A DNA stretch of 64,000 bases, taken from NCBI GenBank assembly GCA_964489065.1, contig CAZAXH010000001.1, positions 21,106 through 85,105 of the forward strand, given 5' to 3'. A program made the translations under genes and the position numbers. The notes below the pieces were generated by a model. The model was not told the origin of the DNA, made no database searches, and saw only the letters and a program-made list of their open reading frames with translations. The stretch comes from an uncultured Planctomycetales bacterium. GTDB taxonomy: Bacteria > Omnitrophota > Gorgyraeia > Zapsychrales > JANLHA01. Positions 33,081 to 51,999 of the stretch are shown one piece after another; position 1 is the stretch's first letter, and each line of letters opens with the position of its first letter.

Positions 33081-33240
33081 CGCCCATAGGCGTGGCCCCC
33101 AGAAACAATGCGCTCCGCGGAATAATCTGCTTCGTAACATACGCGCGGAGATCCCCGGAGCAACAGACCTTATTAACCTCCCGCGTTCATCCACGGGCAT
33201 GCCCGTGGTCGTCTGCAAAGGCGGATAAAAATCCATGTCA
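33081..33240. repeat. Copy A of a ~150-nt repeated leader element (second copy at 59929-60080)
   Basis: Direct alignment of the two regions shows long identical runs (caat.cgct.cgcggaat.atc..gcttc.taaca.acg.g......ccccg.a...aga.gaccttattaacct..cgc.ttcatcc.cgggcat.ccc). Identity is about 72% over ~150 nt. The core contains an 18-nt perfect palindrome ccacgggcatgcccgtgg (33191-33208). Confidence 0.6.
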
Positions 33241-35650
33241 GAAAAGCCATGGAAATAACCATTCCCCATTTAAAAACCGCGGGCCGAAAAACAAACCGGA
33301 CCGTATGCTCTCCAGCCGGGACGCCCACCGCCCACATGCACCCGTTGGCTTTCAGTAAATTTTCCCGCCGGCCGTCCACATAACAGGCCCACCCCGGATA
33401 CCACGTATTGCTGACGACCAGAAACCCGGCCCGCGGGCTGCTGACGCGATAAGCGATTTCTTCCGGAGCGTAACGCTCCGGAAGAATGCTGCTTGTCCCG
33501 GGTGCACCCTCTTTTTCCGCAGGATAAACATGTTGCCCTGGCTCCGGGGATAAAAACACCTTGTTTCCGGGGCAGACCCGGCCGTCATAAAAACCAGCCC
33601 AAAAATCCCTCTCCGGCATAACGCCGGAATCATATCTGAAAAAAGCCCGCGAGACAAAAAGATCATTCCGGTATATCCTGATCCCTCCCTCTCCTTCCCA
33701 CACCAAATGGAAATGCGCGTCATGAAGAGGGGTGTCTTCGTGAGTCAAAATATATTTCACGTTACACAGCCCTAACACTTCCGGGTCAAGCCCGCGCGCC
33801 AGGCTGCGGACCGTTCTGGGCTCCACGCTTTCATAGCCGTTGATCGTTTCAATCCCATACATAGAAAGGATATTCGGGGAATAAATCGGCTTATAATTTC
33901 TACTCATGTTATAAATCAAAACTCGGTATAAATCCTGATCTTTTTTCAAAAAATGCACGGATGAAGTCGATGGGTACAACGGGGACTCCCGGGAATCCGT
34001 CATCGGAAGCCAGTCCCGGGCGAAAAACGCGAGCTGCAACACGTTAAGAACAAGAATACCGGCCATAAAAGCCGGGTTCCTCAGGCGGCCCTGAAGATGG
34101 CCCCAAAGCAAAGCCAATCCCAGGAACATCGTTATTAACGGAAATAACATGTGCGGCGATGAAAAACGGAAATGCTCCAGGAGCTTCTCCACCCGGCTGA
34201 AATACCACGGTTGGTTTCCGGCTTGCAGGTTCGCCATCTGCATATGATTTTTCACGTAATCCATGGCCAGGTTATGCACCTGACCATAGTGCGTCAGAAG
34301 TAAAAAATTGGCGACCCCCAGTGCCGTGACCACTCCCAAAAAGACGGCAAAAAACTTTTTGACAAAAGGGCGGAACACTCCGCGGTCTTTTTGACCCAAA
34401 TAAAAAGACAGGCCAAAGGCAGACAGCACGCTCATGGCGAAAATATAAACGATAAAGAACCGATGATAAACATATTTGAGAAACGGAGTCAGCAACGGGA
34501 CGCCGATCCCCAGGGTCGCGATTCCCCAATAAACGAGAATCCTTTTATCTTGCCGGATCCCTTTGACGCTGAACACACCGAAAACAAACGGCAAAAACCC
34601 GATAAACCCGTTATAAAACATCATCGTCGTGGAGGCCAGTTTAGTTAAATCAAACGCGCGGACGTTCCCGGCCAACTGGGGAAAAACAAAACTTATCAAC
34701 CCGACAATACCCCAAAACCTCTGACTCAAAGGGACCGGCCCCTGCCCGACCTGCGCCCACTGTCCGTTTTGAAAAACATCGTAATAAAACAGCTCCAGAG
34801 TCGGAGCCAGCATCACCGCCGCGCTCCCCACGGCCAGGGCAGAAATCATCACAAACCGTTTGAGTACCGTCCTTGCCGGCGGGCGCGGCCCGCCGGCAAG
34901 CCACCCCAGGACCGCATACGCCAAAGTCAAAAACACCAAAAAACTCATCGTCTGAACAGAAGACGCCAACATCGCTATTCCCAGAAACAAACCGCATGCG
35001 GCGATATCCCTCTCCCTTCCCTCTCCCGGCTTGAGACTCCGATCCAAAAACAGGATCACCAGCGGCATCCAACAAAACGGGCCCAGAATCCAGGGGAAAA
35101 AAGCCGTGGTGACAAACATGCTATTCAGCATATAGGAAAGGCCGCCCATCAGAGCCGCTTCCCAGACAAGACCGTAATGCCTGAGCAGACCGGACATCGA
35201 CAAACCGGCGATCAGAAGCAGCGAGAAAATCTGCCAGAAATAAGCCCGTTCGACCGGGAAACCCAGCAGATAGATAATATTCGTCACATCAAAATTCCCG
35301 GCCATCGTCAGCGCATATTGCGGAAATCCCCCCAGGATAAACGGATTCCAGTAGGCGCCGCGGCCTGACTGCCAGGCGGTTTGCATGAATTTCTTATACG
35401 GCAAATACTGCACCACCACATCATTTAGAAAATGATTATACACCTGGGTGGATTTGGCCTGGGCGTACGGGAGGATCAGGGTGTTCAGCAAATCTCCGGG
35501 GAAAAGATTCTTGTCCCCTTTGAGGACAGGGACAAACAGGAGGGCCAGCATCAACACGAAAAACGTGAAAGCGCCCGGCCAGCCCCGCAATTTTTTGTCA
35601 AAAAAAACATTCTCTCTCATGAATAAATCAAACGCTCTCTTTAGTTTCAT
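33173..35650 (-). CDS. YfhO-family membrane glycosyltransferase (GT-C)
   Basis: 825 aa, with the typical YfhO N-terminal region (FVPVLKGDKNLFPGDLLNTLILPYAQ...QYLPYKKFMQTAWQSG) and more than 12 transmembrane helices. Its last ~22 codons lie within repeat copy A. Confidence 0.75.
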   Translation of the reverse strand: MKLKRAFDLFMRENVFFDKKLRGWPGAFTFFVLMLALLFVPVLKGDKNLFPGDLLNTLILPYAQAKSTQVYNHFLNDVVVQYLPYKKFMQTAWQSGRGAYWNPFILGGFPQYALTMAGNFDVTNIIYLLGFPVERAYFWQIFSLLLIAGLSMSGLLRHYGLVWEAALMGGLSYMLNSMFVTTAFFPWILGPFCWMPLVILFLDRSLKPGEGRERDIAACGLFLGIAMLASSVQTMSFLVFLTLAYAVLGWLAGGPRPPARTVLKRFVMISALAVGSAAVMLAPTLELFYYDVFQNGQWAQVGQGPVPLSQRFWGIVGLISFVFPQLAGNVRAFDLTKLASTTMMFYNGFIGFLPFVFGVFSVKGIRQDKRILVYWGIATLGIGVPLLTPFLKYVYHRFFIVYIFAMSVLSAFGLSFYLGQKDRGVFRPFVKKFFAVFLGVVTALGVANFLLLTHYGQVHNLAMDYVKNHMQMANLQAGNQPWYFSRVEKLLEHFRFSSPHMLFPLITMFLGLALLWGHLQGRLRNPAFMAGILVLNVLQLAFFARDWLPMTDSRESPLYPSTSSVHFLKKDQDLYRVLIYNMSRNYKPIYSPNILSMYGIETINGYESVEPRTVRSLARGLDPEVLGLCNVKYILTHEDTPLHDAHFHLVWEGEGGIRIYRNDLFVSRAFFRYDSGVMPERDFWAGFYDGRVCPGNKVFLSPEPGQHVYPAEKEGAPGTSSILPERYAPEEIAYRVSSPRAGFLVVSNTWYPGWACYVDGRRENLLKANGCMWAVGVPAGEHTVRFVFRPAVFKWGMVISMAFLTWIFIRLCRRPRACPWMNAGG

Positions 35651-35681: not shown

Positions 35682-37256
35682 TCAACGCCGAACCCAAGAC
35701 ACGTCCTTACCGTAGGCCCACGTCAGCCCTAAAAGACACCAAAACGGGATGGCAAAGAAAGGAAGTTCCAGCGTAACGAGGAAGTTCGCGACCACAATCC
35801 AATACACTAAAATGGCCACTAAAAAAAAACCGGTCGTGTCACTGGCCCGGCTGAACCGCAATGTCAGATAGATCACCGCCCACAGAAGCAAGGAAATCAT
35901 CCCCAGCCCCAGCCACCCCGCCCGGTAAAAAATGTGCACATAAGAGTTGTGCGGCTCCATCCAGCCGACACTTTCTAACTCCATCCTGTTCCAGCCCATA
36001 ATTTCAATGCTGGAGGAACGGAAGGGTTTCCCAAAATGCATGCCGAAAACCGGCTGCGTCCGGGACACATCCCTCAACATGTCCCGCCACACCAATAACC
36101 GCCACAGGATGTTATTCGTCGGCTCATTGGAAAAAGGCCGCTTTTCTTCATGAACGCCCTCTCCCTCTGCCGTCAGAGCAGCCAGTGTTTCCGGTGAATC
36201 GGGGACCGCAGAAGAAGCCGAATCCGGAACCGCAGAAGAAGCCGCAACCAAGACGGGCTCCCCGGAATCCTTGACCGGAACAGGCGCAACTATCTCTTGT
36301 TTTATCTTTTTCAACATGACGACCGTGTCTGTTTCTAAAATCCTACCGTCATCATTCATAAAATCCACCGTCGTATCTTTAGCATATAATTGGACAGGAA
36401 CATCCCGCATGACATAACCTGACTGCTGCTCCCGGATGTACTGGTCAGCTTCCTTAAACTGCGCCACCAGGGATTTGATCCGCGTCACGCTGGCGATTTC
36501 TTCCGGGCGGCTGAACGTTCCCACTAAAAGCACAGCCACGGCCACAAAAATTATGCCTCCCAGAACAATCCTTAAAAAACGGACTTTGGTCATGTGCTGA
36601 ATCAGCTTTAAGCCCGAAAAGACCCCCAGCCCGATGAAACAGGCCAAGATGTTAGCCCGGGAACTGCTCAAAAGCGTCAAGTATGGCAGAAACAGCAGCA
36701 AAAAACCTACCAGGAACCACCGGATTTCGGCAAACCGCACACGAGAGATCAGGACCAGGCTTAAAAAAACATAGCTGAACATAAAATATGTGTAACAGTG
36801 CATAGAGCGGATGACTAAGAAGGTCAACAGAAAAATCAGCAGTATCGTATTGATAACCGGATTAAAAAATTTCTTATTATAAAAAGATGCGGCAAACCAG
36901 GAAAAAAACGCATAATAAAATAACGCCGCGTTCCGCAAAGCCAACGCACCGTGTTCCTGATATCCGATAAAAACCTTCAGAAAGATGAAAATCCCGAGAA
37001 CGGCAGCCCCCCCCCTATACAAAGAGAGCGGGGGACGGAAATCCGGGAACCCCCGGACGGCTTCCTTTCCTATCCAGAGCAGAAAACAGAAAACGAGCAG
37101 AACCTCGCCGACAAAAACAGGAAAAGGGAGAAAAGGAAGTTGAAGGTGAAGCTGCGCAAAGGACCGATTAAAAAGGGAATACCCGGCGGCGAAAAAACAC
37201 AGCGCGCTCAGCGCAACATAATCCAGGATATCCAAAAAAGAAGCCCGATTATTCAT
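35682..37256 (-). CDS. O-antigen ligase / polymerase family (Wzy_C) membrane protein
   Basis: 524 aa, polytopic. It has ...WMEPHNSYVHIFYRAGWLGLGMISLLLW... and a long periplasmic loop. Confidence 0.6.
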   Translation of the reverse strand: MNNRASFLDILDYVALSALCFFAAGYSLFNRSFAQLHLQLPFLPFPVFVGEVLLVFCFLLWIGKEAVRGFPDFRPPLSLYRGGAAVLGIFIFLKVFIGYQEHGALALRNAALFYYAFFSWFAASFYNKKFFNPVINTILLIFLLTFLVIRSMHCYTYFMFSYVFLSLVLISRVRFAEIRWFLVGFLLLFLPYLTLLSSSRANILACFIGLGVFSGLKLIQHMTKVRFLRIVLGGIIFVAVAVLLVGTFSRPEEIASVTRIKSLVAQFKEADQYIREQQSGYVMRDVPVQLYAKDTTVDFMNDDGRILETDTVVMLKKIKQEIVAPVPVKDSGEPVLVAASSAVPDSASSAVPDSPETLAALTAEGEGVHEEKRPFSNEPTNNILWRLLVWRDMLRDVSRTQPVFGMHFGKPFRSSSIEIMGWNRMELESVGWMEPHNSYVHIFYRAGWLGLGMISLLLWAVIYLTLRFSRASDTTGFFLVAILVYWIVVANFLVTLELPFFAIPFWCLLGLTWAYGKDVSWVRR

Positions 37257-37291: not shown

Positions 37292-37978
37292 TCATCGGAC
37301 ACGCATCTTGAGCATCAGCCCCATAATTTTAAAACCGTCTTTTAACGCGCTTAATTTAGACCGGCTCCCTTCCGGCCGCTTGCGATAAATAACTGGAGGC
37401 TCCTCGACACGAAGGCTGTTCTTAACGGCCTTCGCCGTAATTTCGGTTTCTATTTCAAAACCTTTGCTGGTAAAATTCATTTTTCGCGCCGCCTCAGAGG
37501 ACAGGGCGCGATAGCCGGACAGGATATCGGAAAACCTGGTCCCATACAATAAATTGAAAAAAGAACAAATCATCTTGTTCCCCAAAACACGATGCTGACG
37601 CCAGACCTCGCTGTTGGCCGCGTTCAAACGGTTTCCCACGACCATATCGGCCCGGCCTGCCAAAATGGGGTCAATGATCTTTCGGATATCAGACGCGCTG
37701 TACGTCGCGTCGCCGTCAACCGTAACATAAACATCCGCTTCAATTTTTTCAAACGCAATCTGCATGACACTCCCTTTTCCCTGGGTATGTTCACGCATCA
37801 CCGTCGCGCCCGCAAGCTCGGCCACATCGCACGTGCGGTCTGTAGAACAATTATCTACAACAAAAACCTCGGCCTCAGGTAGAGTGTCTTTAAAATCCCG
37901 AACCACGTCCCCGATGGTCAATTCTTCGTTAAAACAAGGAACAATGATCGCTATGCGCGGCGAGGGCGAACGCTTCAT
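37292..37978 (-). CDS. Family-2 glycosyltransferase, polyprenol-phosphate sugar transferase-like (DPM1/CsbB/GtrB type)
   Basis: 228 aa. IAIIVPCFNEELTIGDVVRDF...VFVVDNCSTD...VTVDGDATY matches the GT-A polyisoprenyl-phosphate glycosyltransferase pattern. Confidence 0.7.
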   Translation of the reverse strand: MKRSPSPRIAIIVPCFNEELTIGDVVRDFKDTLPEAEVFVVDNCSTDRTCDVAELAGATVMREHTQGKGSVMQIAFEKIEADVYVTVDGDATYSASDIRKIIDPILAGRADMVVGNRLNAANSEVWRQHRVLGNKMICSFFNLLYGTRFSDILSGYRALSSEAARKMNFTSKGFEIETEITAKAVKNSLRVEEPPVIYRKRPEGSRSKLSALKDGFKIMGLMLKMRVR

Positions 37979-38690
37979 CCGTCTTTTCCTTTCTTGCTTC
38001 CCGGCCGACAGCAGCCAGGCAGTAAAGTTCCCCGAATTTCCTCTCGCATATCAGGATATCCAGTCCCACCGCTTTCAATTCCGCGGCAAGGGTTTCATCC
38101 GTATATTCAATCTCATGCGTCGGATCCAGCCGCCACTCCAACCCGGCTTCCCTTTTATACAAAGTAATCCAATCCCGGTCAATGACCGGCACCCGGATTA
38201 AAAGCCGTGTCGTTCTTCGCAAAAGGGCCTGCAGAAAAGCCGGCCGGTCAACAATATGTTCCAGGACATTCGACAGCACAACCGCGTCAAAAACCCTGTC
38301 CCCCAGGCAGTCCGGCGCCTTCCCCACAACATATTCAATGTTGCCCAAATCATAATGCGCCCGGGCTTCCGCGATATTGGCCGGGTTTTTATCGACCGCG
38401 ACAATCTGATGACAAGAGCAGGCCAGGTCGTAGGTCAAGGCCCCGTTGCCGCACCCGACATCCAAGACAATCCAGTCTTTCTGAACATGATCAACAAACC
38501 ACTTATGGTAATTAATAAGCCGGTGCTTGGGGTGAAGGCCGCCCGGCTCCAGGCAACAGGAGAACCGTCCGGCATACCGGTAAGCAAGGTTATGCAGCTG
38601 CAAGGACCGGCGGACGATAAACCGGGCAAAAGGCTTATGGCAAAAAACAGCGATGAGTATCTTCTTAACAACCTGACTTAATGTTCGCAT
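37929..38690 (-). CDS. Class I SAM-dependent methyltransferase
   Basis: Motif I VLDVGCGNGALTYDL and post-I VDKNP. The start is taken at MRTLSQ (38690). Confidence 0.75.
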   Translation of the reverse strand: MRTLSQVVKKILIAVFCHKPFARFIVRRSLQLHNLAYRYAGRFSCCLEPGGLHPKHRLINYHKWFVDHVQKDWIVLDVGCGNGALTYDLACSCHQIVAVDKNPANIAEARAHYDLGNIEYVVGKAPDCLGDRVFDAVVLSNVLEHIVDRPAFLQALLRRTTRLLIRVPVIDRDWITLYKREAGLEWRLDPTHEIEYTDETLAAELKAVGLDILICERKFGELYCLAAVGREARKEKTDEAFALAAHSDHCSLF

Positions 38691-39792
38691 AAATCTCTTT
38701 CTCCTGCTGTAAAATAGCATCCAGGCTATGCGTTTCTTCAATATATTTCCGGGCCGCCTGCCCCAGGCAGGACTGAAGGGCGGAGTCCACCATAACCGTA
38801 CAGATCGCCTTCAGAATCGACGCTTCGTCCGTACGGCATAAATAACCGGTTGCCTCATGTCGAATGATATTATTGATCCCTTCAATATCGCTTCCGATCA
38901 CCGCCAAGCCGCAAGCCATGGCCTCCAGCAACGTCTTGGGCATCCCTTCACAAAATGACGGTAAAATATAGACCCCATACCGGTTGTAAACCTTCGGCAA
39001 TTCGCTATTGGACACCTTCCCCAACAGGTTGGCCTTTATATTATTTTTTTTAATATAACTTGTCAACTCCTCTTTTAACCGCCCTCCCCCCACCACATCC
39101 AGAGTGTATGGCGTCTGGCGCACCGCATCCAGCAGAGTGAAAAGGTTTTTTTCTTTTTCCAGCCGTCCAACAAACAAAATCCGGTCCGAAGCCCGCGTTT
39201 GAGTCAACGGCTTAAACCGGTCTGTCTCCACATAATTATATTGCACTTTGATCTTTTTTCCCGGAACTTTAAAATATTTTTTTATGAACTCTTTGCCGAT
39301 CTCGTTGGATATCACGACAACGTCGGCGATCCAATACGATAAAAGCGCATTGAAATAGGTAAAAATCTTAAAAGACCAGGACATGTTCATCAGCAACGCG
39401 AACCGGAACTGCTCATACCCGCAGCGGATGATCAGCGGTTTTTTATAAAGAAATTTGGCAAGCCCCGGCACCCAGCTGCCCCACATCTGATTGGTTTTGT
39501 AAATATCCGGAGCCGTAAAATCCTCCTTAAGGCGGAAGGGGAGCGTAAAGCTGTGCAGATACCGGAGCAGCGAACGCCGGGGATTCTTAAGATATGCGTA
39601 CATGGGCACAATCCGGACCCGCCCGCATTTCTCCTGATAATCATAGTCTGAACGGTCCCCGTACGTAAAAAAAATGACCTCATGCCCATCCTCGGCCAGT
39701 TGCCGGTACAGCGCGACCTCCCGATCGATCATGCCGTATTCATGCCATTTTTTTAAAGAAGTATTAAAGGTAAAAAAAACACCGATCTTCAT
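38665..39792 (-). CDS. Glycosyltransferase family 4
   Basis: 375 aa, GT-B. C-terminus ILFVGRLEKEKN...YILPSFCEGMPKTLLEAMACGLAVIGSDIEG. Confidence 0.8.
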   Translation of the reverse strand: MKIGVFFTFNTSLKKWHEYGMIDREVALYRQLAEDGHEVIFFTYGDRSDYDYQEKCGRVRIVPMYAYLKNPRRSLLRYLHSFTLPFRLKEDFTAPDIYKTNQMWGSWVPGLAKFLYKKPLIIRCGYEQFRFALLMNMSWSFKIFTYFNALLSYWIADVVVISNEIGKEFIKKYFKVPGKKIKVQYNYVETDRFKPLTQTRASDRILFVGRLEKEKNLFTLLDAVRQTPYTLDVVGGGRLKEELTSYIKKNNIKANLLGKVSNSELPKVYNRYGVYILPSFCEGMPKTLLEAMACGLAVIGSDIEGINNIIRHEATGYLCRTDEASILKAICTVMVDSALQSCLGQAARKYIEETHSLDAILQQEKEIYANIKSGC

Positions 39793-40607: not shown

Positions 40608-40795
40608 GTAATTTGGCAGTAAATAATATAAGAGAATCCCACACGGATGATTTAACATACACGAACCTACTAAATATATTTTCAGGTTATTATTCGGCGA
40701 AAAGAACGGATGACATGAAAACCCGTTTGTTTTTGAAACTTAACGAGGCAAAACCTTACATCTTCCTTAAAATTTATTATCCGGTGAAATAAGCA

Positions 40796-41451
40796 TCAGG
40801 ATTTTTTTCTCACAATGGCATCTTGGAATGCGTTGCCGAATTTATTATAATATATAAGTTCTCCCGGGAACAACTTCATTGTATCAGAGAGACCAATGTT
40901 GCCTACCACCCCCACATGTGACGGATCGATTTTTTCCCCCGGGGATCCCAAGATCAAATATCCTCCTGCAGCCAGAACCCGGCACCATTCTTTCGCCGCA
41001 CGGTAAGGATCTTGCGCATGATCTAAGAAATTTGAATAAACAATTTGAAATATCCCTATCCACTCCGAAGGAAGTTCATCAAAACTGACCGTCAGGACAT
41101 CGCGACGCTTCCCGGAACAATATGCTCAACACAACTCATCCCGAATGTTTCGATAGGCCTAAAACGGGAAGAGAAGGCGTATTTTCTTTGTTCAAGAAGT
41201 CTTATGCATGCGATCCTCAAAGGATTACTAAAGAAAACATTGCGGAACAAATCAATTTCTCTCCCGTTACGTGTCCCCAAACACAAAATCGGGCCTTTGA
41301 TAGGGATATTCCTCTCGCACCGGGTGATTACTTTCTTCCATTGCTGTACACACGCAACGCTCACCTTACAAAAAGCGAATTTTTTACGCGAGTGCGCAAT
41401 CTGAGTTGCAAAATACTCCGCACGAGACTGTTCTTGATTGTAAATATGCAT
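40796..41451 (-). pseudogene. Frameshifted class I SAM-dependent methyltransferase (paralog of the 46187-46858 methyltransferase)
   Basis: Minus-strand ORF 41451-41092 carries the N-terminal half with motif I ILCLGTRNGREIDLF and then stops. I hand-translated a different minus-strand frame from 41125 down to ~40798. It gives AYCSGKRRDVLTVSFDELPSEWIGIFQIVYSNFLDHAQDPYRAAKEWCRVLAAGGYLILGSPGE..., the C-terminal half of a methyltransferase. The two halves are joined only by a frameshift near 41095-41125. Confidence 0.5.
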
Positions 41452-41463
41452 ATTAAGTCCTCT

Positions 41464-42432
41464 TTAGATAAAATCCAAAACTTCCCGGAGTACTTTTTCA
41501 TATTGCCGGCACATGGCCGCGGCGTTAAACGGGAACGTCCGCATCCCGGGTTGAAGCCGCGCGTACTGGTCCCGCATTTTAAATAAAGCGACCGGGAAAG
41601 ACCCGGCCGTGTATTCAATCCCCGCCTCCCGGCACGTTTCCACGACCCCGCCCCCTTCGTTGATATACAACACCGGCAGCCCGCAACAGGCCCCTTCCAA
41701 CTGGTGCATCCCGCAAGATTCCCAACGCGCGGCCGTCAAATACACGTGATGAGACCGCAACTCCTGCGCCAGTTCGGTGCCGAAAAGTGGGGGCACAGTG
41801 CGCGTATACCGGAACTCGGTTCCAGCCGGATATCTACCGACATACGTGAACTGGAACTGGCCCTGCATCCAAGAATCCTCAAGCAGTTTATCAAAATAAC
41901 GGTAAACATCAATGCCTTTCATGGGATTATTCGACCAGTGATGCGTGACGATTTTCATCGGCTCCCCGTTGTGCCAAGGCCGATACCCCTGAGCATGAAA
42001 TATATTTTCATCCGGGCCGTTGCGCACCACGTAGGCAGGCACCAGGGGATCCAGTCCTTTCTGCCTGTAATATTCCCTCACCCATTCGCTGATAAACACA
42101 AAGGCATCAGCCACTTTATTCGCCTCCAGCCGCAGGCGGTCGATGTGGCGGGTGTTTTTTGCCCGGTCAGTTTCGTTAATCCGATGAATCACCTTGACAC
42201 GCGGATGAGTCTTTTTATATCTTTTGATGTCCTTGTGCGTGAACGTCCCGCTTCCGGGGTGAGGATTGATCAGGATAATCACATCCAGCCCTTCCTCTAA
42301 ATGATGGACAACGCGCGCGCCCTTCCCTTCAAAATATTTCTTAAACGAGATCAAGAATTGGTTCCCCCCGCCCCAGGGGCCGTCTGTAATCTCATTGCCT
42401 AAAGCGATCTTTAACTCTTTAAAAGTGTCCAT
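41464..42432 (-). CDS. Putative GT-B-fold glycosyltransferase (family unclear)
   Basis: 322 aa. The C-terminal GLPVLYINEGGGVVE resembles the GT1/GT4 donor-binding region. The N-terminus is not recognisable. Confidence 0.4.
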   Translation of the reverse strand: MDTFKELKIALGNEITDGPWGGGNQFLISFKKYFEGKGARVVHHLEEGLDVIILINPHPGSGTFTHKDIKRYKKTHPRVKVIHRINETDRAKNTRHIDRLRLEANKVADAFVFISEWVREYYRQKGLDPLVPAYVVRNGPDENIFHAQGYRPWHNGEPMKIVTHHWSNNPMKGIDVYRYFDKLLEDSWMQGQFQFTYVGRYPAGTEFRYTRTVPPLFGTELAQELRSHHVYLTAARWESCGMHQLEGACCGLPVLYINEGGGVVETCREAGIEYTAGSFPVALFKMRDQYARLQPGMRTFPFNAAAMCRQYEKVLREVLDFI

Positions 42433-42521: not shown

Positions 42522-44021
42522 TTAACTCATCTCCGGGACTTGCTTGCGGATGCGGTAATAATAAAAATCTAACAGATAAAACTCGAACGGAAGCCGGTAA
42601 AAAAGCCAGCGCAGGCGCAGTTTGGAAATGATCGTCAAGAAGAGGAGCCACAACCCTTTAAAAGGGTTTTTCCGGATTTTCTCCCAGACAAAAGCATAGG
42701 TGTTGGTAGCGGCTTTTGTACTGGTCCACAAATACTTATTGAAGGTCATGTTCTTAATCCAGGGAGGTTCGGCGCCGCCTAAGATTTCGGCGTGCTCCCA
42801 TTCCTCCAGCGTCTCCGGCATCTTGAGGCCGTAATCGCGCACGCACATATCGTACAATTCTCCCCCCGGATACGGCCGGTAATTTGCCGGGCCGTTAATA
42901 AAAGCCCGGGGCTGAATCCGCAAAATCTCCCGGATGAGCCTTAACGTCTGCATCTGTTCAGCTTTCGTTTCGGTGGGAATGCCGGTCATAAACGCGACCA
43001 AAGGGATGATGTTGAATTTCTTGGTCCGCCGGACAAAATTCAAGATATCCTCAACCTTGATGCCTTTACGCAAAAGATCCAGGATCCGTTGGGACCCCGA
43101 TTCCCCCCCGCATTGCAGTTTGTTGCACCCCGAGTCAGCCAGCAGCTTAAGATAATCATCACCGACATAGGACTCCCGCAGATATTCAACCCGCGGATTA
43201 GCGAGCCAGGTAATGCGGATGTTACGGTCCAGCAGGCCCTGCGCGATCTCCCGGACCTGCTGCTTGTTCGACATAAACACTTCATCCCGGAACCCGACGC
43301 GCTGGATATTAAATTCCCGGAATAAGAATTCAATCTCGTTCAAAACGTTTACGGGGTCCCGGTAACGCATCTTCCGATTCTTGGTCAGCACGTTAATACA
43401 AAACGCGCAGCGGTACGGGCAGCCCCGGCTGGCCTGCACCCGGATAATACTCCGCTTGACGACAGACAGCACTTCGGGTTTAAGCATGGACCAGTCCAGG
43501 ATCGGAAGTTTATTCACATCAACAAACGGCCGGGCCGGCGTCGTGACGACGCCCCCGTTTTCCTTAAAGCAAATCCCATCCACCTTATGCAGATCAAGCG
43601 TGCCTGATTCGATCCGGCGGACGATATCCAGCATGACATCTTCCCCTTCCCCGGGGACAACGATATCCGCCAGCGGGCTCCGCGCGGTTTGCTCCGTGAA
43701 CAGAATTGCGTGAGGCCCCCCCCAGATAATCTTAACCCGAGGATTCTTTTGCCGAAGCCGCCGCAGTTCCGGCAGAAGGTAACGGATATGGACGCTCATC
43801 GCATACACGCCCAAAAGATCCGTATCGACAATTTCCCGGTCCAGGATATCCTGATATTCCGGCTCTACGGAACAATCCACCAGCTTAACCCTATATCCTT
43901 GCTGTTTAAGGACGGTCGCAATATAGAGAAGGCCGGTCGGAGTATTATAGGTGCCGATCGTGCCGGTCGGCGGGTAAATCAACAAGACCTTGACCGTATC
44001 TTTCTTAATCGCTGGCTTCAA
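42522..44021 (-). CDS. B12-binding domain radical SAM protein (class B radical SAM)
   Basis: N-terminal Rossmann-like cobalamin-binding region (VLLIYPP...IIWGGPHA), then a CxxxCxxC cluster ASRGCPYRCAFCIN and a radical SAM TIM-barrel core. 499 aa. Confidence 0.8.
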   Translation of the reverse strand: MKPAIKKDTVKVLLIYPPTGTIGTYNTPTGLLYIATVLKQQGYRVKLVDCSVEPEYQDILDREIVDTDLLGVYAMSVHIRYLLPELRRLRQKNPRVKIIWGGPHAILFTEQTARSPLADIVVPGEGEDVMLDIVRRIESGTLDLHKVDGICFKENGGVVTTPARPFVDVNKLPILDWSMLKPEVLSVVKRSIIRVQASRGCPYRCAFCINVLTKNRKMRYRDPVNVLNEIEFLFREFNIQRVGFRDEVFMSNKQQVREIAQGLLDRNIRITWLANPRVEYLRESYVGDDYLKLLADSGCNKLQCGGESGSQRILDLLRKGIKVEDILNFVRRTKKFNIIPLVAFMTGIPTETKAEQMQTLRLIREILRIQPRAFINGPANYRPYPGGELYDMCVRDYGLKMPETLEEWEHAEILGGAEPPWIKNMTFNKYLWTSTKAATNTYAFVWEKIRKNPFKGLWLLFLTIISKLRLRWLFYRLPFEFYLLDFYYYRIRKQVPEMS

Positions 44022-44037
44022 ACCTATCCCCTTTCCT

Positions 44038-45381
44038 TTATCGATACGGGGTCTCTTCGTATAAACGTAAACCCTTTATCTCCTTATACGCCGATCCATA
44101 CCGTTTCTTAAACTGCGCGAAAAAATCCTGGACCGCTTGGTCACGCAAGTAACGATATTTTTCATTATCCAAACAGCGGACGATCCGATATTCCCGGGAA
44201 CGGCACAGCCGACAGATGAGGTTGGGATGCGAGGAATTCACCGTCTCCCTTAAAAACTGAAACACTTTATGATTCCAAATATCGTTAAAATTGTTGTCAG
44301 GGTCAGAAAAAAACTCCTTATAATTGAGCAATAACGGCTCCAGCCGGTTGCAAACCGAAACATAATGGGAATCCGGATAATCCAACGCGCCTTTAAACTG
44401 GATCAGGCGCCAAGGTTGCAGGCAACAGCGGTCGCCTTCCGATGTTAAATGGTCCAAGTCAACCGCATTGACATCCTCCATGGCATGATAATAACATGGC
44501 TGGGAAGGAGTCAATGTGACATTCCGCTCCCGGGCATAATGATAAATCTCGTCCAGCAGGTGGTTCCCCTCGGCCGGATCAAAGTAATATGACACGTCAC
44601 GGCTTAATTTGTTCCTTACATCATAGTAACTATTAACCGAAACGTAATCCAATTTGTGTTCGCAAGCGAAGTCAATAATCCTGCGCGTATTGTGGGCGTT
44701 AAGCCGGTTCAACATAAAATTAATGCCCAACCGGTTTCTTCGGCCCTTACGGGTGGTATAATAACGGATATTAGCCACGACCCGGTCAAAATCCCCGCCC
44801 AACAGCTTCTTATACGTTTCCTTGTCCGCGGCGTGCAGCGAAACAAGAATATTATCGAACCCGCAACGGATCAAAGCGTCGGCCGTCTCCGGCACCAAAA
44901 AAAAACCGTTGGTGTTCACGCTCAAATTCAACTGTGGATATTTTTCTTTAAGAGAGCTGGCGATCTCAACAAAATGGGGATTGATCATCGGCTCCCCCAC
45001 AGACCCATAAAAGCTCAAACTCGACACATGGCGAATCCATGCTTCGTATTTCTTAATCATATCCAGATCAATGATGTTTTTATATTTGACCGGGATTTTT
45101 TCATGCACGTGGTGAATCTCGCAAAAGGCGCAACGGTAATTGCAGATATCGGTGAGATTCAAGACCCCCTGGGTGGGCATGCAACCCGTGCAAGCCGTCC
45201 CGCGGCAGGCATCACGGATCGCGTGAACGGTCTTGAGGGGCCCGGGGTAGAACTTCTCAAACAAAGACGCGGATTTATACAAAACCTCATGCCCCGCCAC
45301 ATAGGCCATGACCCTTTTTTTATTCTCCGGGGATATTGGCGAGGTAAACCCTAACATAATGATTTCTCCATCACCTGACAT
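44038..45381 (-). CDS. Radical SAM protein with Cys-rich C-terminal (SPASM/twitch-like) domain
   Basis: CNYRCAFCE CxxxCxxC motif, then the GSVGEPMINP glycine-rich SAM motif. C-terminal cysteines CCLQPW...CNRL...CRLCRS are consistent with an auxiliary Fe-S domain. Confidence 0.7.
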   Translation of the reverse strand: MSGDGEIIMLGFTSPISPENKKRVMAYVAGHEVLYKSASLFEKFYPGPLKTVHAIRDACRGTACTGCMPTQGVLNLTDICNYRCAFCEIHHVHEKIPVKYKNIIDLDMIKKYEAWIRHVSSLSFYGSVGEPMINPHFVEIASSLKEKYPQLNLSVNTNGFFLVPETADALIRCGFDNILVSLHAADKETYKKLLGGDFDRVVANIRYYTTRKGRRNRLGINFMLNRLNAHNTRRIIDFACEHKLDYVSVNSYYDVRNKLSRDVSYYFDPAEGNHLLDEIYHYARERNVTLTPSQPCYYHAMEDVNAVDLDHLTSEGDRCCLQPWRLIQFKGALDYPDSHYVSVCNRLEPLLLNYKEFFSDPDNNFNDIWNHKVFQFLRETVNSSHPNLICRLCRSREYRIVRCLDNEKYRYLRDQAVQDFFAQFKKRYGSAYKEIKGLRLYEETPYR

Positions 45382-46190
45382 CCGGCGGTAGGACCCCCGT
45401 CATCCAGCAGCAAGTCTTTTATGAACACGATATCCCGATCGGCGTAGGAGTTCAGCAAGGCCTTAAACCAAGGCACTCCGCCGCGGATAATATTCCAATC
45501 ATGAAAAAGGAAGACGTTGGGATCTCCCACATAAGTCAAGCCATTATTCTTTCTCCCCGTAGGGGATAACGCTTCAGTGGAGGATAGATATCGAAGCCCG
45601 GATTCGCAGGCGAACCGTTCTGTGTCCGCAGTCCACACGTTCCCCGGAGGGATAAAGGTCACCACCTCGCAGCCGAAATACTCTTTCAAATACCGCTGGG
45701 ACACCCGCAGATGGTCCCGGTGAGTTTCCGCCGGAAGCCAATCCCAGAACTCCCGATGAGCGAGACGGTTAGGCTCCCGCCAGCGCGGCCGGTGCTGTCC
45801 AACGACACAATGGGTCAGCCCGTGATTGGCGATCTCCAAGACCCCCTGTGCAACTCCTTGTTTCAAAACCGCGGCGGCTTCCGGAAACTTCTGAAAAAAA
45901 GGGACCAGTTCTCCGGAGTACTCTACCCACGCGGCAGTCACGCCGACGGTCAATTTCGCGTTATGGGACACCAGCAGCTTTATAATCTGCTCCCACTCTC
46001 CGGCCCTTAATTCCCGATAGGGCAGGCGCTTCCGTAAGCCCGGGCAATATTTCATCCATAAAAAATTTGATATCCGGGTCACCGGCCAAACGCGGCCCAG
46101 GAACTTAACGGTATCCTTCCCGTAAATTTCAAACTTTTTCGTGGAAGCAAAGACATCATCCATGCGTAAAGCTATGCGTTCTTTGGTCAT
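45351..46190 (-). CDS. Polysaccharide deacetylase-like (NodB/CE4 superfamily) protein
   Basis: LRMDDV (a TFDDG-like Asp-Asp motif) and ANHGLTHC (HxxxH-like). 279 aa. Assignment is tentative. Confidence 0.45.
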   Translation of the reverse strand: MTKERIALRMDDVFASTKKFEIYGKDTVKFLGRVWPVTRISNFLWMKYCPGLRKRLPYRELRAGEWEQIIKLLVSHNAKLTVGVTAAWVEYSGELVPFFQKFPEAAAVLKQGVAQGVLEIANHGLTHCVVGQHRPRWREPNRLAHREFWDWLPAETHRDHLRVSQRYLKEYFGCEVVTFIPPGNVWTADTERFACESGLRYLSSTEALSPTGRKNNGLTYVGDPNVFLFHDWNIIRGGVPWFKALLNSYADRDIVFIKDLLLDDGGPTAGCQVMEKSLC

Positions 46191-46858
46191 AATCCTTTTC
46201 GCAAACGTGTCTCACACACAAACAAATACCCCATGGGGAACCGGGAGTTCTGGTCCCTCCGATCCAATCCAAGGACTAATAATTTCGTACAATACAAAAA
46301 CGGCAACATAAAAAGCTTCCCCCATCGCCCGTAAGTGTTTCTGACCTTTTCAAAAAAGAAATCCCATATGACCGTGTACCGTCCGCCCAGGAGGATCCGT
46401 TCCCGCACATAAAAATGAACCTCAAGGAAAATCCGCCAGGATTTTTCCGTATACCGGACATTATCTACATCCCCATGCACAGGATCAAGGAAAGGCACGG
46501 AAAAAAGGAAAACCCCATCGGGCTTCAAAACCCTGGCTATTTCTTTTAGAACCCGCGGTGTCTCTAAAACATATTCCATGACCTCAAAAGAAACAACCGC
46601 ATCAAAAACTTCAGGCCCAAACGGCAGCGCCCGCGCGTCCGCCGCGATCACGTCTTTCCCCTTTTCCGGCTTAAGGTCAACGGCAATCATGTCCCGCGCC
46701 CCTGGGAAAAAAGAATCGTAACGGCGGTTACGCGACCCCACATCCAAAACGCGCCCCCGGACCGCAGGCGCACACCGACGGATCGCCTCGTTGAGCAACT
46801 GGCGATGCAGGGAACAGCCGTAAAAACCGCCGATTTTCTTTTGAATGACCTTCAACAT
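46187..46858 (-). CDS. Class I SAM-dependent methyltransferase
   Basis: Motif I VLDVGSRNRRYDSFF, motifs DAVVSFEVMEYV and LKPDGVFLF. The start is taken at MLKVIQ (46858). Confidence 0.75.
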   Translation of the reverse strand: MLKVIQKKIGGFYGCSLHRQLLNEAIRRCAPAVRGRVLDVGSRNRRYDSFFPGARDMIAVDLKPEKGKDVIAADARALPFGPEVFDAVVSFEVMEYVLETPRVLKEIARVLKPDGVFLFSVPFLDPVHGDVDNVRYTEKSWRIFLEVHFYVRERILLGGRYTVIWDFFFEKVRNTYGRWGKLFMLPFLYCTKLLVLGLDRRDQNSRFPMGYLFVCETRLRKGL

Positions 46859-46878
46859 ACAATTTTGGCAACCAGCTT

Positions 46879-47835
46879 TCAAGTCAGAGACACGGCTTTC
46901 GGGTGTGGCCAAGGCGCCGTATTCTTAAGTTTTCTAGTGATGGCGGCAACGACCTCTTCAACTTGAATAGACGCCAGGCACTTCTTATGAAAAGGGCATT
47001 GAACCCTTAATCCACAAGGAGCGCAATCAACATGATGGTAAATATTAATATTATTGTGGTAGGCCGTTAGTTCAAGGGGCGTGTATCCGCCGTATAAAAT
47101 AACACTGTCTATGCCCACGGCCTGCGCGGCGTGCATCAGCCCGCCGTCCGTACCCACAAAAAGCTTCGCGCCTTTCAACAGGCAGGCCGTATCACGGAAG
47201 GAACCCAACCCCCGGAAATCCACCACGCGTTTCAACAAGGCCTTCCCCGGCAACCCCACCTGGACAACCGTGATCAATTCGGAAACCTGATCCACCACCG
47301 CCTGCCATCTTTCAAAAAACCAGCTCTTATTGGGCGTGTAATCATCTTTGGCGTGTGGCTCGAGCGCGATGAAATCATCAAGCCCCTCCATCCAGCGTGC
47401 CACCCGCCGGAGTTCTTCTTCCGTAAAAAACAACTCCGGCCGGGGAGGCGAAGTCACATCGCAACCGAAACGCTTACACAGCATGGTGATCGCGTTCCCG
47501 GATTTAAAGACAAGCTTCTCCGGCGTGCAGGAAACGGCATAGGAGTTTTGATTATCGTTACAGTCTATAATAATGGCCCTCTTTCTCTGTCGCCGGTCTA
47601 AGGCGTCCGCCGGGATAAGATGCGGATTGTTCGTGAAGATTTCATCCAGAGGTTTGGTTTCCCAAAACAGCCTTTTATTGACCTTATGGAAAACCGGATT
47701 CTGTTTCAAGCCCACCGGAGCACACCGCTCCAAGGGAGTCGGGATGGTGTGTTTAAAAATAACCGGCCGGGCGGGATAGCGCCGTTTTAATTCCCCTATC
47801 ACCGCCGTCCAGATTAAAGATCCGCCGTAGCCCAT
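46879..47835 (-). CDS. Glycosyltransferase family 9 (heptosyltransferase-like)
   Basis: C-terminal GTDGGLMHAAQAVGIDSVILYGG is the GT9 donor-site signature. 318 aa. Confidence 0.75.
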   Translation of the reverse strand: MGYGGSLIWTAVIGELKRRYPARPVIFKHTIPTPLERCAPVGLKQNPVFHKVNKRLFWETKPLDEIFTNNPHLIPADALDRRQRKRAIIIDCNDNQNSYAVSCTPEKLVFKSGNAITMLCKRFGCDVTSPPRPELFFTEEELRRVARWMEGLDDFIALEPHAKDDYTPNKSWFFERWQAVVDQVSELITVVQVGLPGKALLKRVVDFRGLGSFRDTACLLKGAKLFVGTDGGLMHAAQAVGIDSVILYGGYTPLELTAYHNNINIYHHVDCAPCGLRVQCPFHKKCLASIQVEEVVAAITRKLKNTAPWPHPKAVSLT

Positions 47836-51276: not shown

Positions 51277-51999
51277 TCAATCCTCGGCCACATTAATAAA
51301 CTTTTCCATCTCCCGGGACTGCTGGCAGAGGGTGCGCAATTCTTCCGGCGTGGCGCTGCAGACGTGATCCGGCCCCACCAGCCCCTTATTAAGAGTAAAG
51401 TGCTTTTCGATAATCCTGGCACCCCGGGCCACGGCCACCAGAGCCGCCTCAATGCCGATCGTGTGATCGCTGAAGCCGTCGTAAGGAGTGGCTTTAAACG
51501 AAACCGGCAAATGAATATCCTTATACTCCGCGGGATATTTCGCCACGCAATAAAGGTATTTCGCTTTATCATAGGCGTAGGGGACATCATTATCCTCCCA
51601 GAAACCCAATGAAATAAAAACCTCTTTGCCGGTCGCGAATATTTTTTTACACAACTTTTTCTCCTGCACGGTGCGGCTCGCGATTTTATAACGTTTCACT
51701 TGCAGCCGCTCCATCCATTCAAAGCGATCTTCATCAAATACCGAAGCCATAAACTCGATGCCTTCTTCGTCACACCAGGTCTTAAGCCGCCGGGCGTCCT
51801 CAAACCCAAACTGCACGGTCAGGGCAAACCGGTAATTTTCCTCGTCCGGATAGCTCCCCTGCGGCCCGAAGATCTTCGCCGGGTCGTAAAACTGGAACTT
51901 GGCGACATCGGCCCCGCACTGTTTGGCCTGTTTGATCAACTCGTGGGCCAGATGAATACTGCCGTTATGGTTAATTCCAATTTCCGCGATGATAATCAT
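51277..51999 (-). CDS. NeuB-family (N-acetylneuraminate synthase-like) TIM-barrel protein lacking the C-terminal SAF domain
   Basis: MIIIAEIGINHNGSIHLAHELIKQAKQCGADVAKFQ is the NeuB/PseI N-terminal signature. At 240 aa it is ~100 aa shorter than full NeuB homologs. Confidence 0.7.
   Translation of the reverse strand: MIIIAEIGINHNGSIHLAHELIKQAKQCGADVAKFQFYDPAKIFGPQGSYPDEENYRFALTVQFGFEDARRLKTWCDEEGIEFMASVFDEDRFEWMERLQVKRYKIASRTVQEKKLCKKIFATGKEVFISLGFWEDNDVPYAYDKAKYLYCVAKYPAEYKDIHLPVSFKATPYDGFSDHTIGIEAALVAVARGARIIEKHFTLNKGLVGPDHVCSATPEELRTLCQQSREMEKFINVAED

What the first reader, a model, noticed from the sequence alone, without database searches (positions are those of the whole stretch)
42522..45381. 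Two more radical SAM enzymes embedded in the glycan island with no room for a peptide substrate
A B12-binding radical SAM (CPYRCAFC) is separated by 16 nt from a second radical SAM (CNYRCAFC) with a Cys-rich C-terminal auxiliary-cluster domain. That architecture usually indicates RiPP peptide maturases. Here the neighbours are glycosyltransferases, methyltransferases and a deacetylase, and no unassigned intergenic space exists for a precursor peptide. The only gap, 40659-41463, is a frameshifted methyltransferase. The enzymes therefore most likely act on a sugar, nucleotide-sugar or lipid-linked glycan. A SPASM-like radical SAM acting in carbohydrate metabolism would be unusual.
Basis: partly seen in the sequence, partly recalled or inferred. 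Interest (0 to 1): 0.7.

Follow-up and report, generated by a model that had tools for sequence, protein, structure and literature searches.

The report
Radical SAM pair tailoring a surface glycan
Two adjacent iron-sulfur "radical" enzymes sit inside a cell-surface sugar-polymer gene cluster, and their relatives in other genomes are also tied to sugar-building genes rather than peptides, so they most likely modify a sugar, although their exact chemistry is untested.

Summary
Two radical SAM genes lie 16 nt apart on the minus strand. rSAM-A (42522-44021) carries a B12-binding domain. rSAM-B (44038-45381, probable true start 45357) has a Cys-bearing C-terminal domain. No space exists for a precursor peptide, and the 805-nt gap is a frameshifted methyltransferase that is intact in a close relative.

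rSAM-B is not a full SPASM enzyme. Only four extra cysteines are invariant, and they flank a beta-hairpin and a helix, which is the one-cluster "twitch" layout. It belongs to a rare family with no curated model: 17 full-length homologs in 5.8 billion proteins, and 16 of 185,579 species genomes, all MAGs. In 23 non-redundant loci from bacteria and archaea it sits in glycan clusters. It is usually flanked by two GT4-type glycosyltransferases, and 12 of 23 loci carry a B12 radical SAM nearby. No member matched a PqqD-type peptide-recognition domain (RRE).

rSAM-A is a class-B radical SAM. Its closest structures are AprD4, MgmA, TsrM and CysS.

Best reading: a sugar-tailoring pair. rSAM-B probably oxidises a sugar carbon as BtrN does. 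rSAM-A probably C-methylates it, or less likely deoxygenates it. Twitch and B12 radical SAM enzymes acting on sugars are already known from aminoglycoside and nucleoside antibiotic pathways. Their conserved use in cell-envelope glycans is uncharacterised.

The parts
44038..45381 (-). rSAM-B: a radical SAM enzyme with a C-terminal twitch-type, single-auxiliary-cluster domain. The longest ORF is 447 aa; the probable true start is the ATG at 45357 (439 aa).
42522..44021 (-). rSAM-A: a class-B radical SAM enzyme with a B12-binding domain, 499 aa, TTG start. It has a conserved hydrophobic/aromatic C-terminal helical tail (about residues 453-491).
44022..44037 (-). 16-nt spacer between the two radical SAM genes. 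It holds a purine-rich ribosome-binding site (AAGGAAAGGGGA) ahead of the TTG start of rSAM-A. The TTG start is also present in relative L173.
   Evidence: Sequences compared; gap measured.
41464..42432 (-). Divergent GT4-like glycosyltransferase ('GTweak', 322 aa). It is one of the two most constant genetic partners of rSAM-B.
   Evidence: Weak Pfam Glycos_transf_1 match, E 1e-4. Homologs (25-84% identity) are present in 17 of 23 rSAM-B loci, often directly downstream.
45351..46190 (-). Polysaccharide-deacetylase-like gene (CE4/DUF2334). It overlaps the rSAM-B start by 7 nt.
   Evidence: Pfam Polysacc_deac_1 E 7.7e-8. Homologs at 42-72% identity occur near rSAM-B in L001, L002, L005, L012 and L173.
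46187..46912 (-). Class-I SAM methyltransferase. It recurs next to the deacetylase in other loci.
   Evidence: Pfam Methyltransf_11 E 1e-13. It is adjacent to the deacetylase homolog in L002, L005 and L012 and present in 12 of 23 loci.
40805..41451 (-). Frameshifted methyltransferase-like pseudogene (or a sequencing error). It accounts for the only large gap in the island.
   Evidence: Three-frame translation. The intact 230-aa gene of L173 aligns in two frames at 67% and 79% identity.
37929..39792 (-). A methyltransferase (37929-38741) and a GT4 glycosyltransferase (38665-39792) that co-occur with rSAM-B in other genomes.
   Evidence: Pfam. Homologs of each are present in 12 of 23 rSAM-B loci at 33-83% identity.

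Best explanation
The two genes form a co-transcribed pair of sugar-tailoring radical SAM enzymes. They sit in a large cell-surface glycan island (O-antigen or capsule type, with nonulosonic-acid genes) of an uncultured bacterium, probably an Omnitrophota member.

Shown here: both are radical SAM enzymes. rSAM-B carries a twitch-type C-terminal domain with four invariant cysteines, enough to ligate one auxiliary Fe-S cluster fully. Its rare family is genetically tied to GT4-type glycosyltransferases, methyltransferases and often a B12 radical SAM, across bacteria and archaea, with no peptide-recognition domain and no precursor gene. rSAM-A is a class-B radical SAM whose N-terminal domain resembles genuine cobalamin-binding domains.

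Inferred:
- rSAM-B abstracts a hydrogen from a sugar carbon of the growing glycan or of its activated precursor. The substrate radical is then oxidised through the fully ligated auxiliary cluster, giving a keto-sugar. This is the BtrN/SpeY-type two-electron dehydrogenation. The family has no eighth conserved cysteine that could return a hydrogen atom, as the epimerases HygY and NeoN do.
- rSAM-A most likely transfers a methyl group from methylcobalamin to a non-activated sugar carbon, as GenK and GenD1 do.
- The neighbouring deacetylase and methyltransferase probably expose and methylate an amino group on the same residue or an adjacent one.
- The flanking GT4-like transferases install and extend that residue.
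For: - Domains: Pfam hits. No curated family cutoff is reached (best for rSAM-B is 84 bits against 380; best for rSAM-A is BchE at 162 against 481).
- Glycan context: of 23 non-redundant loci, 18 have the GT4 'GT-up', 17 have GTweak, 12 each have the GT4_38665, MT_37929 and MT_46187 homologs, 5 have the deacetylase, and 12 have a B12 radical SAM (gene tables).
- Fusions in the wider clade: GT4+rSAM proteins (P0192, P0201) and B12-rSAM+SPASM-rSAM proteins (P0184, P0221, P0252).
- No peptide signature: no PqqD/RRE hit in any of the 17 family members at E<=1. The N-terminus is modelled as three helices with no beta-sheet. The window has no free intergenic space.
Against: - No substrate, product or cofactor was observed. 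The chemistry is inferred by analogy.
- The closest structures include a decarboxylase (BlsE) and a peptide cross-linker (SuiB).
- The best structural match of rSAM-A is AprD4, a cobalamin-independent diol dehydratase.
- rSAM-A orthologs also occur without rSAM-B (L170, L171), and L170 is not an obvious glycan cluster.
- rSAM-B occurs without any B12 radical SAM in about half of the loci, so the two enzymes need not act on the same residue.
- L025 shows no glycan genes near rSAM-B, only c-di-GMP signalling genes.
Confidence: 0.6

Rival explanations
1. The target is still a glycan, but the chemistry differs. rSAM-A would be an AprD4-like, cobalamin-independent 1,2-diol dehydratase that deoxygenates a sugar. 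rSAM-B would be an epimerase or a BlsE-like uronic-acid decarboxylase rather than a dehydrogenase.
Against: The NCBIfam AprD4 model scores 70.5 bits against a cutoff of 500, and it matches the core only. The N-terminal domain of rSAM-A aligns to true cobalamin domains but not to that of AprD4. No invariant non-cluster cysteine exists in rSAM-B to act as the hydrogen donor used by HygY- and NeoN-type epimerases (HygY title cited). No UDP-glucose dehydrogenase was seen next to the pair in the window.
Confidence: 0.25
2. The enzymes modify a lipid rather than the sugar. The target could be the polyprenol carrier, a lipid A or glycolipid acyl chain, or a hopanoid-like anchor.
For: rSAM-A gives sub-threshold hits to lipid-acting class-B families: HpnJ 129.5 bits, the ladderane-lipid B12 radical SAM 115.7 bits, and HpnR. 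It has a conserved hydrophobic/aromatic C-terminal tail. An MsbA-like ABC exporter and a GT9 heptosyltransferase-like gene lie nearby. From my own knowledge, the hopanoid genes HpnI (glycosyltransferase), HpnK (deacetylase) and HpnJ (B12 radical SAM) follow the same gene logic on a lipid-linked glucosamine.
Against: All of these hits are far below the family cutoffs. The partners conserved across 23 loci are glycosyltransferases, methyltransferases and a deacetylase, not lipid-synthesis genes. The hydropathy of the tail peaks at 1.29, below the usual transmembrane threshold.
Confidence: 0.1
3. The two enzymes are RiPP maturases, and their precursor peptide is encoded elsewhere in the genome.
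For: SPASM/twitch radical SAM enzymes and B12 radical SAM C-methyltransferases are common in RiPP clusters. SuiB and SkfB are among the top structural matches. ApyD and rSAM_ocin_1 give sub-threshold hits.
Against: No RRE/PqqD domain was found in any of the 17 family members, and the modelled N-terminus has no beta-sheet. The window has no room for a precursor. No gene table for the 23 loci shows a RiPP signature (precursor, protease or RiPP transporter), and nearly all show glycan genes. GT-rSAM fusion proteins exist.
Confidence: 0.03

Closest known systems
BtrN (butirosin 2-deoxy-scyllo-inosamine dehydrogenase) and the twitch-domain sugar and cyclitol enzymes SpeY and HygY
   Same: It is a radical SAM core followed by a twitch domain. 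One cysteine lies before a beta-hairpin, one after it, and a CX2C follows a helix, so the single auxiliary cluster is fully ligated. The substrate is a carbohydrate or cyclitol. BtrN is the best PDB sequence hit for the rSAM-B family (E 1e-9), and the C-terminal IWN...R...CxxC stretch also aligns, though only weakly (3.7 bits, E above 100).
BlsE (cytosylglucuronate decarboxylase) and MoaA
   Different: Identity is 15-18%. MoaA leaves one iron of its auxiliary cluster open for GTP, whereas rSAM-B has four invariant cysteines. No uronic-acid or GTP context is evident.
SPASM RiPP maturases (SuiB, SkfB, PqqE, anSME)
   Different: rSAM-B has no RRE domain, no precursor gene and no second auxiliary-cluster motif (CX2CX5CX3C). 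Pfam SPASM gives E about 0.01 in 2 of 17 family members.
Class-B (cobalamin) radical SAM enzymes: MgmA, CysS, TokK, TsrM, and GenK/GenD1
   Different: Identity is 16-22%. No curated family cutoff is reached. rSAM-A has a conserved C-terminal hydrophobic helical tail and three further invariant cysteines (C50, C299, C393). Its substrate is unknown.
AprD4 (apramycin radical SAM 1,2-diol dehydratase)
   Different: The sequence similarity is confined to the radical SAM core. The NCBIfam AprD4 model scores 70.5 bits against a cutoff of 500. From my own knowledge, AprD4 does not use cobalamin.

Membership tests
Radical SAM superfamily (both proteins) | CX3CX2C cluster motif and a Pfam PF04055 match above the gathering score | tested here: met
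   C201/C205/C208 in rSAM-A and C80/C84/C87 in rSAM-B, invariant in their families. PF04055 scores 74.8 and 71.3 bits against a cutoff of 29.5.
Class-B (cobalamin-dependent) radical SAM (rSAM-A) | An N-terminal B12-binding (Rossmann) domain fused to the radical SAM core | tested here: met
Class-B (cobalamin-dependent) radical SAM (rSAM-A) | Actual cobalamin binding and cobalamin-dependent turnover | not testable with these tools
   AprD4 shares the fold without using cobalamin, so the fold alone is not proof.
SPASM domain (rSAM-B) | The seven-cysteine motif CX9-15GX4C-gap-CX2CX5CX3C-gap-C, which binds two auxiliary clusters (definition in PMC6231123) | tested here: not met
   Only four non-core cysteines are invariant: C320, C344, C390 and C393. 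There is no CX2CX5CX3C motif. Pfam SPASM gives E about 0.01 in 2 of 17 members.
Twitch domain (rSAM-B) | A truncated SPASM fold: a beta-hairpin followed by a helix, with one cysteine before the hairpin, one after it, and cysteines after the helix, ligating one auxiliary cluster (PMC6231123) | tested here: met
RiPP radical SAM maturase | An RRE/PqqD-like peptide-recognition domain and an associated precursor peptide gene | tested here: not met
   No PqqD/RRE hit in any of the 17 members at E<=1. The N-terminus is helical only. The window has no free coding space. No conserved small ORF appears in the gene tables of related loci.
BtrN family | Full-length homology to BtrN | tested here: not met
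AprD4 family (NF033070), BchE (TIGR02026), HpnJ (TIGR03471), MgmA type (TIGR04014) | A score above NCBIfam's curated cutoff | tested here: not met
   Scores are 70.5 against 500, 162.3 against 481, 129.5 against 578, and 94.3 against 360.

The most novel reading that the evidence does not exclude
A horizontally mobile cassette (GT4, twitch radical SAM, GT4, often with a B12 radical SAM, a deacetylase and methyltransferases) brings aminoglycoside-style radical tailoring into primary cell-envelope glycans. The products could be keto, C-methyl-branched, deoxy or even carbocyclic sugars. The cassette is found in uncultured anaerobic bacteria and archaea, including Asgard and Thermoplasmata lineages. 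rSAM-B would be the founding member of an undescribed family of glycan-modifying radical enzymes. A more radical variant follows from its close fold match to the cross-linker SuiB and its position between two glycosyltransferases: rSAM-B might forge a non-glycosidic C-C or C-O link within the glycan.
Probability: 0.45. Interest if true: 0.7.

Novelty: new variant of a known kind. Interest (0 to 1): 0.55.

Why it matters
Radical SAM genes are often annotated in capsule and O-antigen loci. To my knowledge, and in the literature searched here, none of this type has an assigned reaction in cell-surface polysaccharide assembly.

This work defines a rare, sharply bounded family with a clear genetic partner set. 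That makes a specific question testable: which radical modification do uncultured anaerobes install in their surface glycans? The lineages include Omnitrophota, Dehalococcoidia, Planctomycetota and Asgard archaea.

If the chemistry is C-methylation, oxidation or carbocycle formation on a lipid-linked glycan, it would add a new enzyme class to glycobiology. It would also provide biocatalysts for modifying non-activated sugar carbons.

Tried and rejected
- Sequence search of the rSAM-B C-terminal domain alone against the PDB gave no significant hit; the best E was 0.15, to unrelated Atg8.
- Pfam SPASM does not detect the domain directly.
- A metagenome scan with the single rSAM-A protein found nothing. 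The repeat scan with an alignment used generic motifs and returned mostly paralogs at about 30% identity, with only L090 at 51%. It was of little use for ortholog context.
- Five literature searches on radical SAM enzymes in polysaccharide, O-antigen or Omnitrophota contexts, or on sugar-acting twitch enzymes, found no paper that characterises such an enzyme.
- The HygY paper (PMC8611816) is not held.
- The afdb50 fold library was unavailable.
- Rfam found no cobalamin riboswitch or any other RNA family in the window.
- Hydropathy analysis of the rSAM-A tail does not support a transmembrane helix; the maximum is 1.29.
- The RiPP reading was rejected on context and the lack of an RRE.
- A full-SPASM, two-auxiliary-cluster reading was rejected on cysteine conservation.
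- Sulfur-sulfur distances in the model could not be measured, because coordinates are not exposed.
Full report
**Observation**

ORF 42522-44021 (minus strand, 499 aa, TTG start) contains GCPYRCAFC. ORF 44038-45381 (minus strand, 447 aa) contains CNYRCAFC. The two are 16 nt apart.

Pfam assigns a B12-binding domain (E 3.6e-17) and Radical_SAM (E 1.2e-20) to the first protein, here called rSAM-A. It assigns Radical_SAM (E 1.4e-19) to the second, rSAM-B.

The true start of rSAM-B is probably the ATG at 45357. GGAG lies 8 nt upstream of it, it overlaps the stop codon of the upstream deacetylase gene by 7 nt (ATGTTAG), and the closest homologs begin at that residue.

Every gene in the 64-kb window reads on the minus strand. 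Positions from about 17 to 60 kb form a glycan island. It includes:
- three Wzy_C-type genes, WecG, a UDP-GlcNAc 2-epimerase and AsnB;
- several GT2, GT4 and GT9 glycosyltransferases and six or more methyltransferases;
- an MsbA-like ABC exporter;
- two NeuB homologs, a cytidylyltransferase and a GNAT acetyltransferase.

Between 37.3 and 51.2 kb every gap is 89 nt or shorter, except 40659-41463. That gap is a frameshifted methyltransferase-like gene. The intact 230-aa gene of the syntenic relative L173 aligns to it in two frames. No room is left for a precursor peptide.

**What rSAM-B is**

No curated family claims it. The best NCBIfam score is 84 bits against a cutoff of 380, and all hits cover only the core, residues about 74-300.

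The family is rare:
- 17 full-length homologs among 5.8 billion clustered proteins;
- about 40 full-length representatives among 1.84 billion, with 193 representatives below E 1e-30 in a wider clade;
- orthologs in 16 of 185,579 GTDB species genomes, all of them MAGs.

Those MAGs are Omnitrophota, Dehalococcoidia, Chromatiales, Ratteibacteria, Pirellulales, Sedimentisphaerales, Desulfobacteraceae, a delta-proteobacterium, Flavobacteriales, Alphaproteobacteria, Thermoplasmata and Promethearchaeota.

The family alignment has seven invariant cysteines. Three form the CX3CX2C motif (C80, C84, C87). The other four are C320, C344, C390 and C393, spaced C-x23-C-x45-C-x2-C. The remaining cysteines of the window protein, including C296, C319 and C403, are not conserved.

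The AlphaFold model has mean pLDDT 88.2 and pTM 0.86. It places C320 before a beta-hairpin (strands 326-331 and 338-342), C344 just after it, and C390xxC393 after a helical segment (354-381). This is the canonical twitch layout. PMC6231123 defines twitch as a truncated SPASM domain that binds one auxiliary cluster. Its elements are a hairpin followed by helix alpha-2', with a cysteine before the hairpin, one after it, and cysteines after the helix. BtrN ligates its cluster fully with four cysteines.

Three further results agree:
- BtrN is the best PDB hit by sequence profile, at E 1e-9.
- The C-terminal domain alone finds nothing in the PDB by sequence. Its profile does align at 97.7% probability to residues 599-686 of the distant relative P0202, which Pfam calls SPASM, with the four cysteines in register.

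The seven-cysteine SPASM motif is absent. rSAM-B is therefore a twitch enzyme, not a full SPASM enzyme. Its N-terminus (residues 18-60) is modelled as three helices without a beta-sheet, and no member hits PqqD/RRE.

**Genomic context of rSAM-B**

I retrieved 23 non-redundant loci that encode orthologs and scored them by tblastn with the window's proteins. The counts were:

| Partner gene near rSAM-B | Loci (of 23) |
|---|---|
| Conserved GT4 ('GT-up') | 18 |
| Homolog of the window's divergent GT4-like gene 41464-42432 ('GTweak') | 17 |
| Homolog of GT4 38665-39792 | 12 |
| Homolog of methyltransferase 37929-38741 | 12 |
| Homolog of methyltransferase 46187-46912 | 12 |
| Homolog of the deacetylase | 5 |
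| Any B12 radical SAM within the held flanks | 12 |
| rSAM-A ortholog (51% identity or more) | 5 |

GT-up usually lies immediately upstream of rSAM-B. Its copies are 28-63% identical to one another, and it is absent from the window. GTweak homologs often lie immediately downstream of rSAM-B. The methyltransferase 46187-46912 lies next to the deacetylase homolog in L002, L005 and L012.

The remaining genes in these loci also belong to sugar metabolism. They include NeuB, DegT aminotransferases, SDR epimerases and dehydratases, flippases, ABC exporters and PMT_2-type transferases. Even the sparse Thermoplasmata locus L020 keeps the GT4 directly upstream. Two loci show no such genes: the Hyphomicrobiales locus L025 has c-di-GMP signalling genes instead, and L014 (3.2 kb) is too short to show neighbours.

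In the wider clade there are fusion proteins that join a GT4 domain to this radical SAM domain (P0192, P0201). Others join B12 radical SAM and SPASM radical SAM domains (P0184, P0221, P0252). A 2026 preprint on Omnitrophota also groups glycosyltransferase group 1 and radical SAM domains in a 'sugar metabolism' module of giant proteins.

Two close relatives share the window's gene order. L173 is 81% identical in nucleotides over the pair. The Omnitrophota chromosome OY759724.1 (L001/L010) is 54-89% identical in protein sequence across the shared genes. L001 additionally carries a second pair, a SPASM radical SAM and a B12 radical SAM, together with a DegT-family gene and a GT2. The window is therefore probably from an Omnitrophota bacterium; this is an inference.

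**What rSAM-A is**

It belongs to a much larger and strongly conserved family. Orthologs are 49-89% identical across Omnitrophota, Sedimentisphaerales, Ratteibacteria and Methanoperedens, and mean column identity in the alignment is 66%.

No curated family cutoff is met. The best scores are BchE 162 against 481, ApyD 135, BzaD 130, HpnJ 129.5, the MgmA type 94 and AprD4 70.5.

At sequence level, the N-terminal domain aligns to the cobalamin domains of MgmA, CysS, OxsB and TokK. AprD4 aligns only over the radical SAM core. This modestly favours a true cobalamin enzyme.

A conserved hydrophobic and aromatic C-terminal helical tail is present. It is not hydrophobic enough to be called a transmembrane helix.

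Ortholog contexts are as follows:
- next to rSAM-B in L001, L002, L015, L172 and L173;
- in a methyltransferase-rich glycan cluster with a SPASM radical SAM in L171;
- beside an SDR, an ADH and an unknown gene in L170.

**Mechanism**

Shown: this is a co-oriented and probably co-translated operon segment in the order methyltransferase, deacetylase, rSAM-B, rSAM-A, GT4-like. Both radical SAM cores are intact. rSAM-B has a predicted fully ligated single auxiliary cluster. The linkage to glycan genes, and not to peptide genes, is conserved across domains of life.

Inferred:
- rSAM-B abstracts a hydrogen from a sugar carbon. The radical is then oxidised through the auxiliary cluster to give a keto-sugar, as proposed for BtrN and anSME, whose fully ligated clusters are thought to oxidise the radical intermediate.
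- The absence of any further invariant cysteine argues against a HygY- or NeoN-type epimerase, which uses a cysteine as hydrogen donor. HygY becomes a dehydrogenase when that cysteine is mutated (title cited).
- rSAM-A most likely C-methylates a non-activated sugar carbon through methylcobalamin, as GenK and GenD1 do (from my own knowledge). An AprD4-like deoxygenation is the main alternative.
- The deacetylase and methyltransferase pair suggests that an amino sugar is N-deacetylated and then methylated.
- The gene set (GT4s, deacetylase, N- or O-methyltransferases, B12 radical SAM, twitch radical SAM) mirrors aminoglycoside tailoring logic. It also mirrors the hopanoid HpnI, HpnK and HpnJ logic. 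Both parallels come from my own knowledge and are analogies, not membership claims.

I put confidence at about 0.85 that the pair acts on a glycan or sugar. For each specific reaction the confidence is about 0.3.

**Rivals**

- A RiPP maturase role is very unlikely, at about 0.03.
- A lipid target is possible but poorly supported, at about 0.1.
- Alternative sugar chemistries (dehydratase, epimerase or decarboxylase) remain open, at about 0.25.

**Novelty and verdict**

The new elements are these:
- rSAM-B founds a rare family that no curated model covers.
- The family is locked between two glycosyltransferases in cell-envelope glycan clusters of uncultured bacteria and archaea.
- It is repeatedly paired with B12 radical SAM enzymes.

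This is a new variant of a known kind, of moderate interest (0.55). It offers a clear experimental path to a new type of glycan modification.

Noticed in passing
window 40805-41451 (-): A methyltransferase-like gene is split by a frameshift near 41107-41113. The syntenic relative L173 (13907-14599) has it intact at 230 aa. It could be a genuine pseudogene or an assembly error.
   Followed up: yes
L001 4849-9976 (Omnitrophota OY759724.1): The 54%-identical relative carries an extra inserted block that the window lacks: a SPASM radical SAM (359 aa), a second B12 radical SAM (475 aa), a 573-aa DegT-family protein and a GT2. This is a second 'SPASM + B12' radical SAM pair in the same glycan island.
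   Followed up: partly
proteins P0179, P0184, P0192, P0201, P0221, P0252, P0261, P0285: These are giant multidomain proteins of 1,100-2,400 aa. They fuse several radical SAM/SPASM modules with B12 radical SAM, GT2 or GT4 domains. About 600-aa relatives (P0195, P0197, P0199) carry an N-terminal domain of about 230 aa that has no Pfam match.
   Followed up: partly
window 51277-51999 (-) and 57024-58076 (-): There are two NeuB homologs. The first is a short 240-aa form without the SAF domain. It is conserved at the same length and position in L001 and L173, so it is probably a real truncated paralog and not a fragment.
   Followed up: partly
window 52830-54131, 54059-55417, 56065-57027, 24733-25926 (all -): Four ORFs of 320-452 aa inside the glycan island have no Pfam hit at E<=1e-4. 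The two at 52.8-55.4 kb have counterparts of 421 and 452 aa in L173, also without Pfam hits.
   Followed up: no
window 17371-18852, 19902-21341, 35682-37256 (all -): One island holds three separate Wzy_C (O-antigen ligase/polymerase-like) membrane proteins, together with a YfhO-like protein (33173-35650). This suggests that more than one glycan is assembled or attached.
   Followed up: no
window 25910-28090 (-): This is a 726-aa fusion of a zinc-ADH-type domain with a GFO/IDH/MocA oxidoreductase. It could serve as a sugar oxidoreductase or as a reductase partner for radical chemistry.
   Followed up: no
window 1-64000: Every ORF that is a credible gene lies on the minus strand, and GC skew is negative in every 2-kb bin. 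Rfam finds no RNA family at gathering threshold.
   Followed up: partly
rSAM-A residues C50, C299, C393 (window 42522-44021): Three cysteines outside the CX3CX2C motif are invariant in 22 orthologs. Their role is unknown; they could bind a metal, form a disulfide or donate a hydrogen atom.
   Followed up: no
L025 7098-15896 (Hyphomicrobiales MAG): This is the one locus of adequate length where the rSAM-B ortholog lies outside an obvious glycan cluster. It is flanked by GGDEF and EAL response regulators and preceded by a 368-aa ORF with no Pfam hit.
   Followed up: partly
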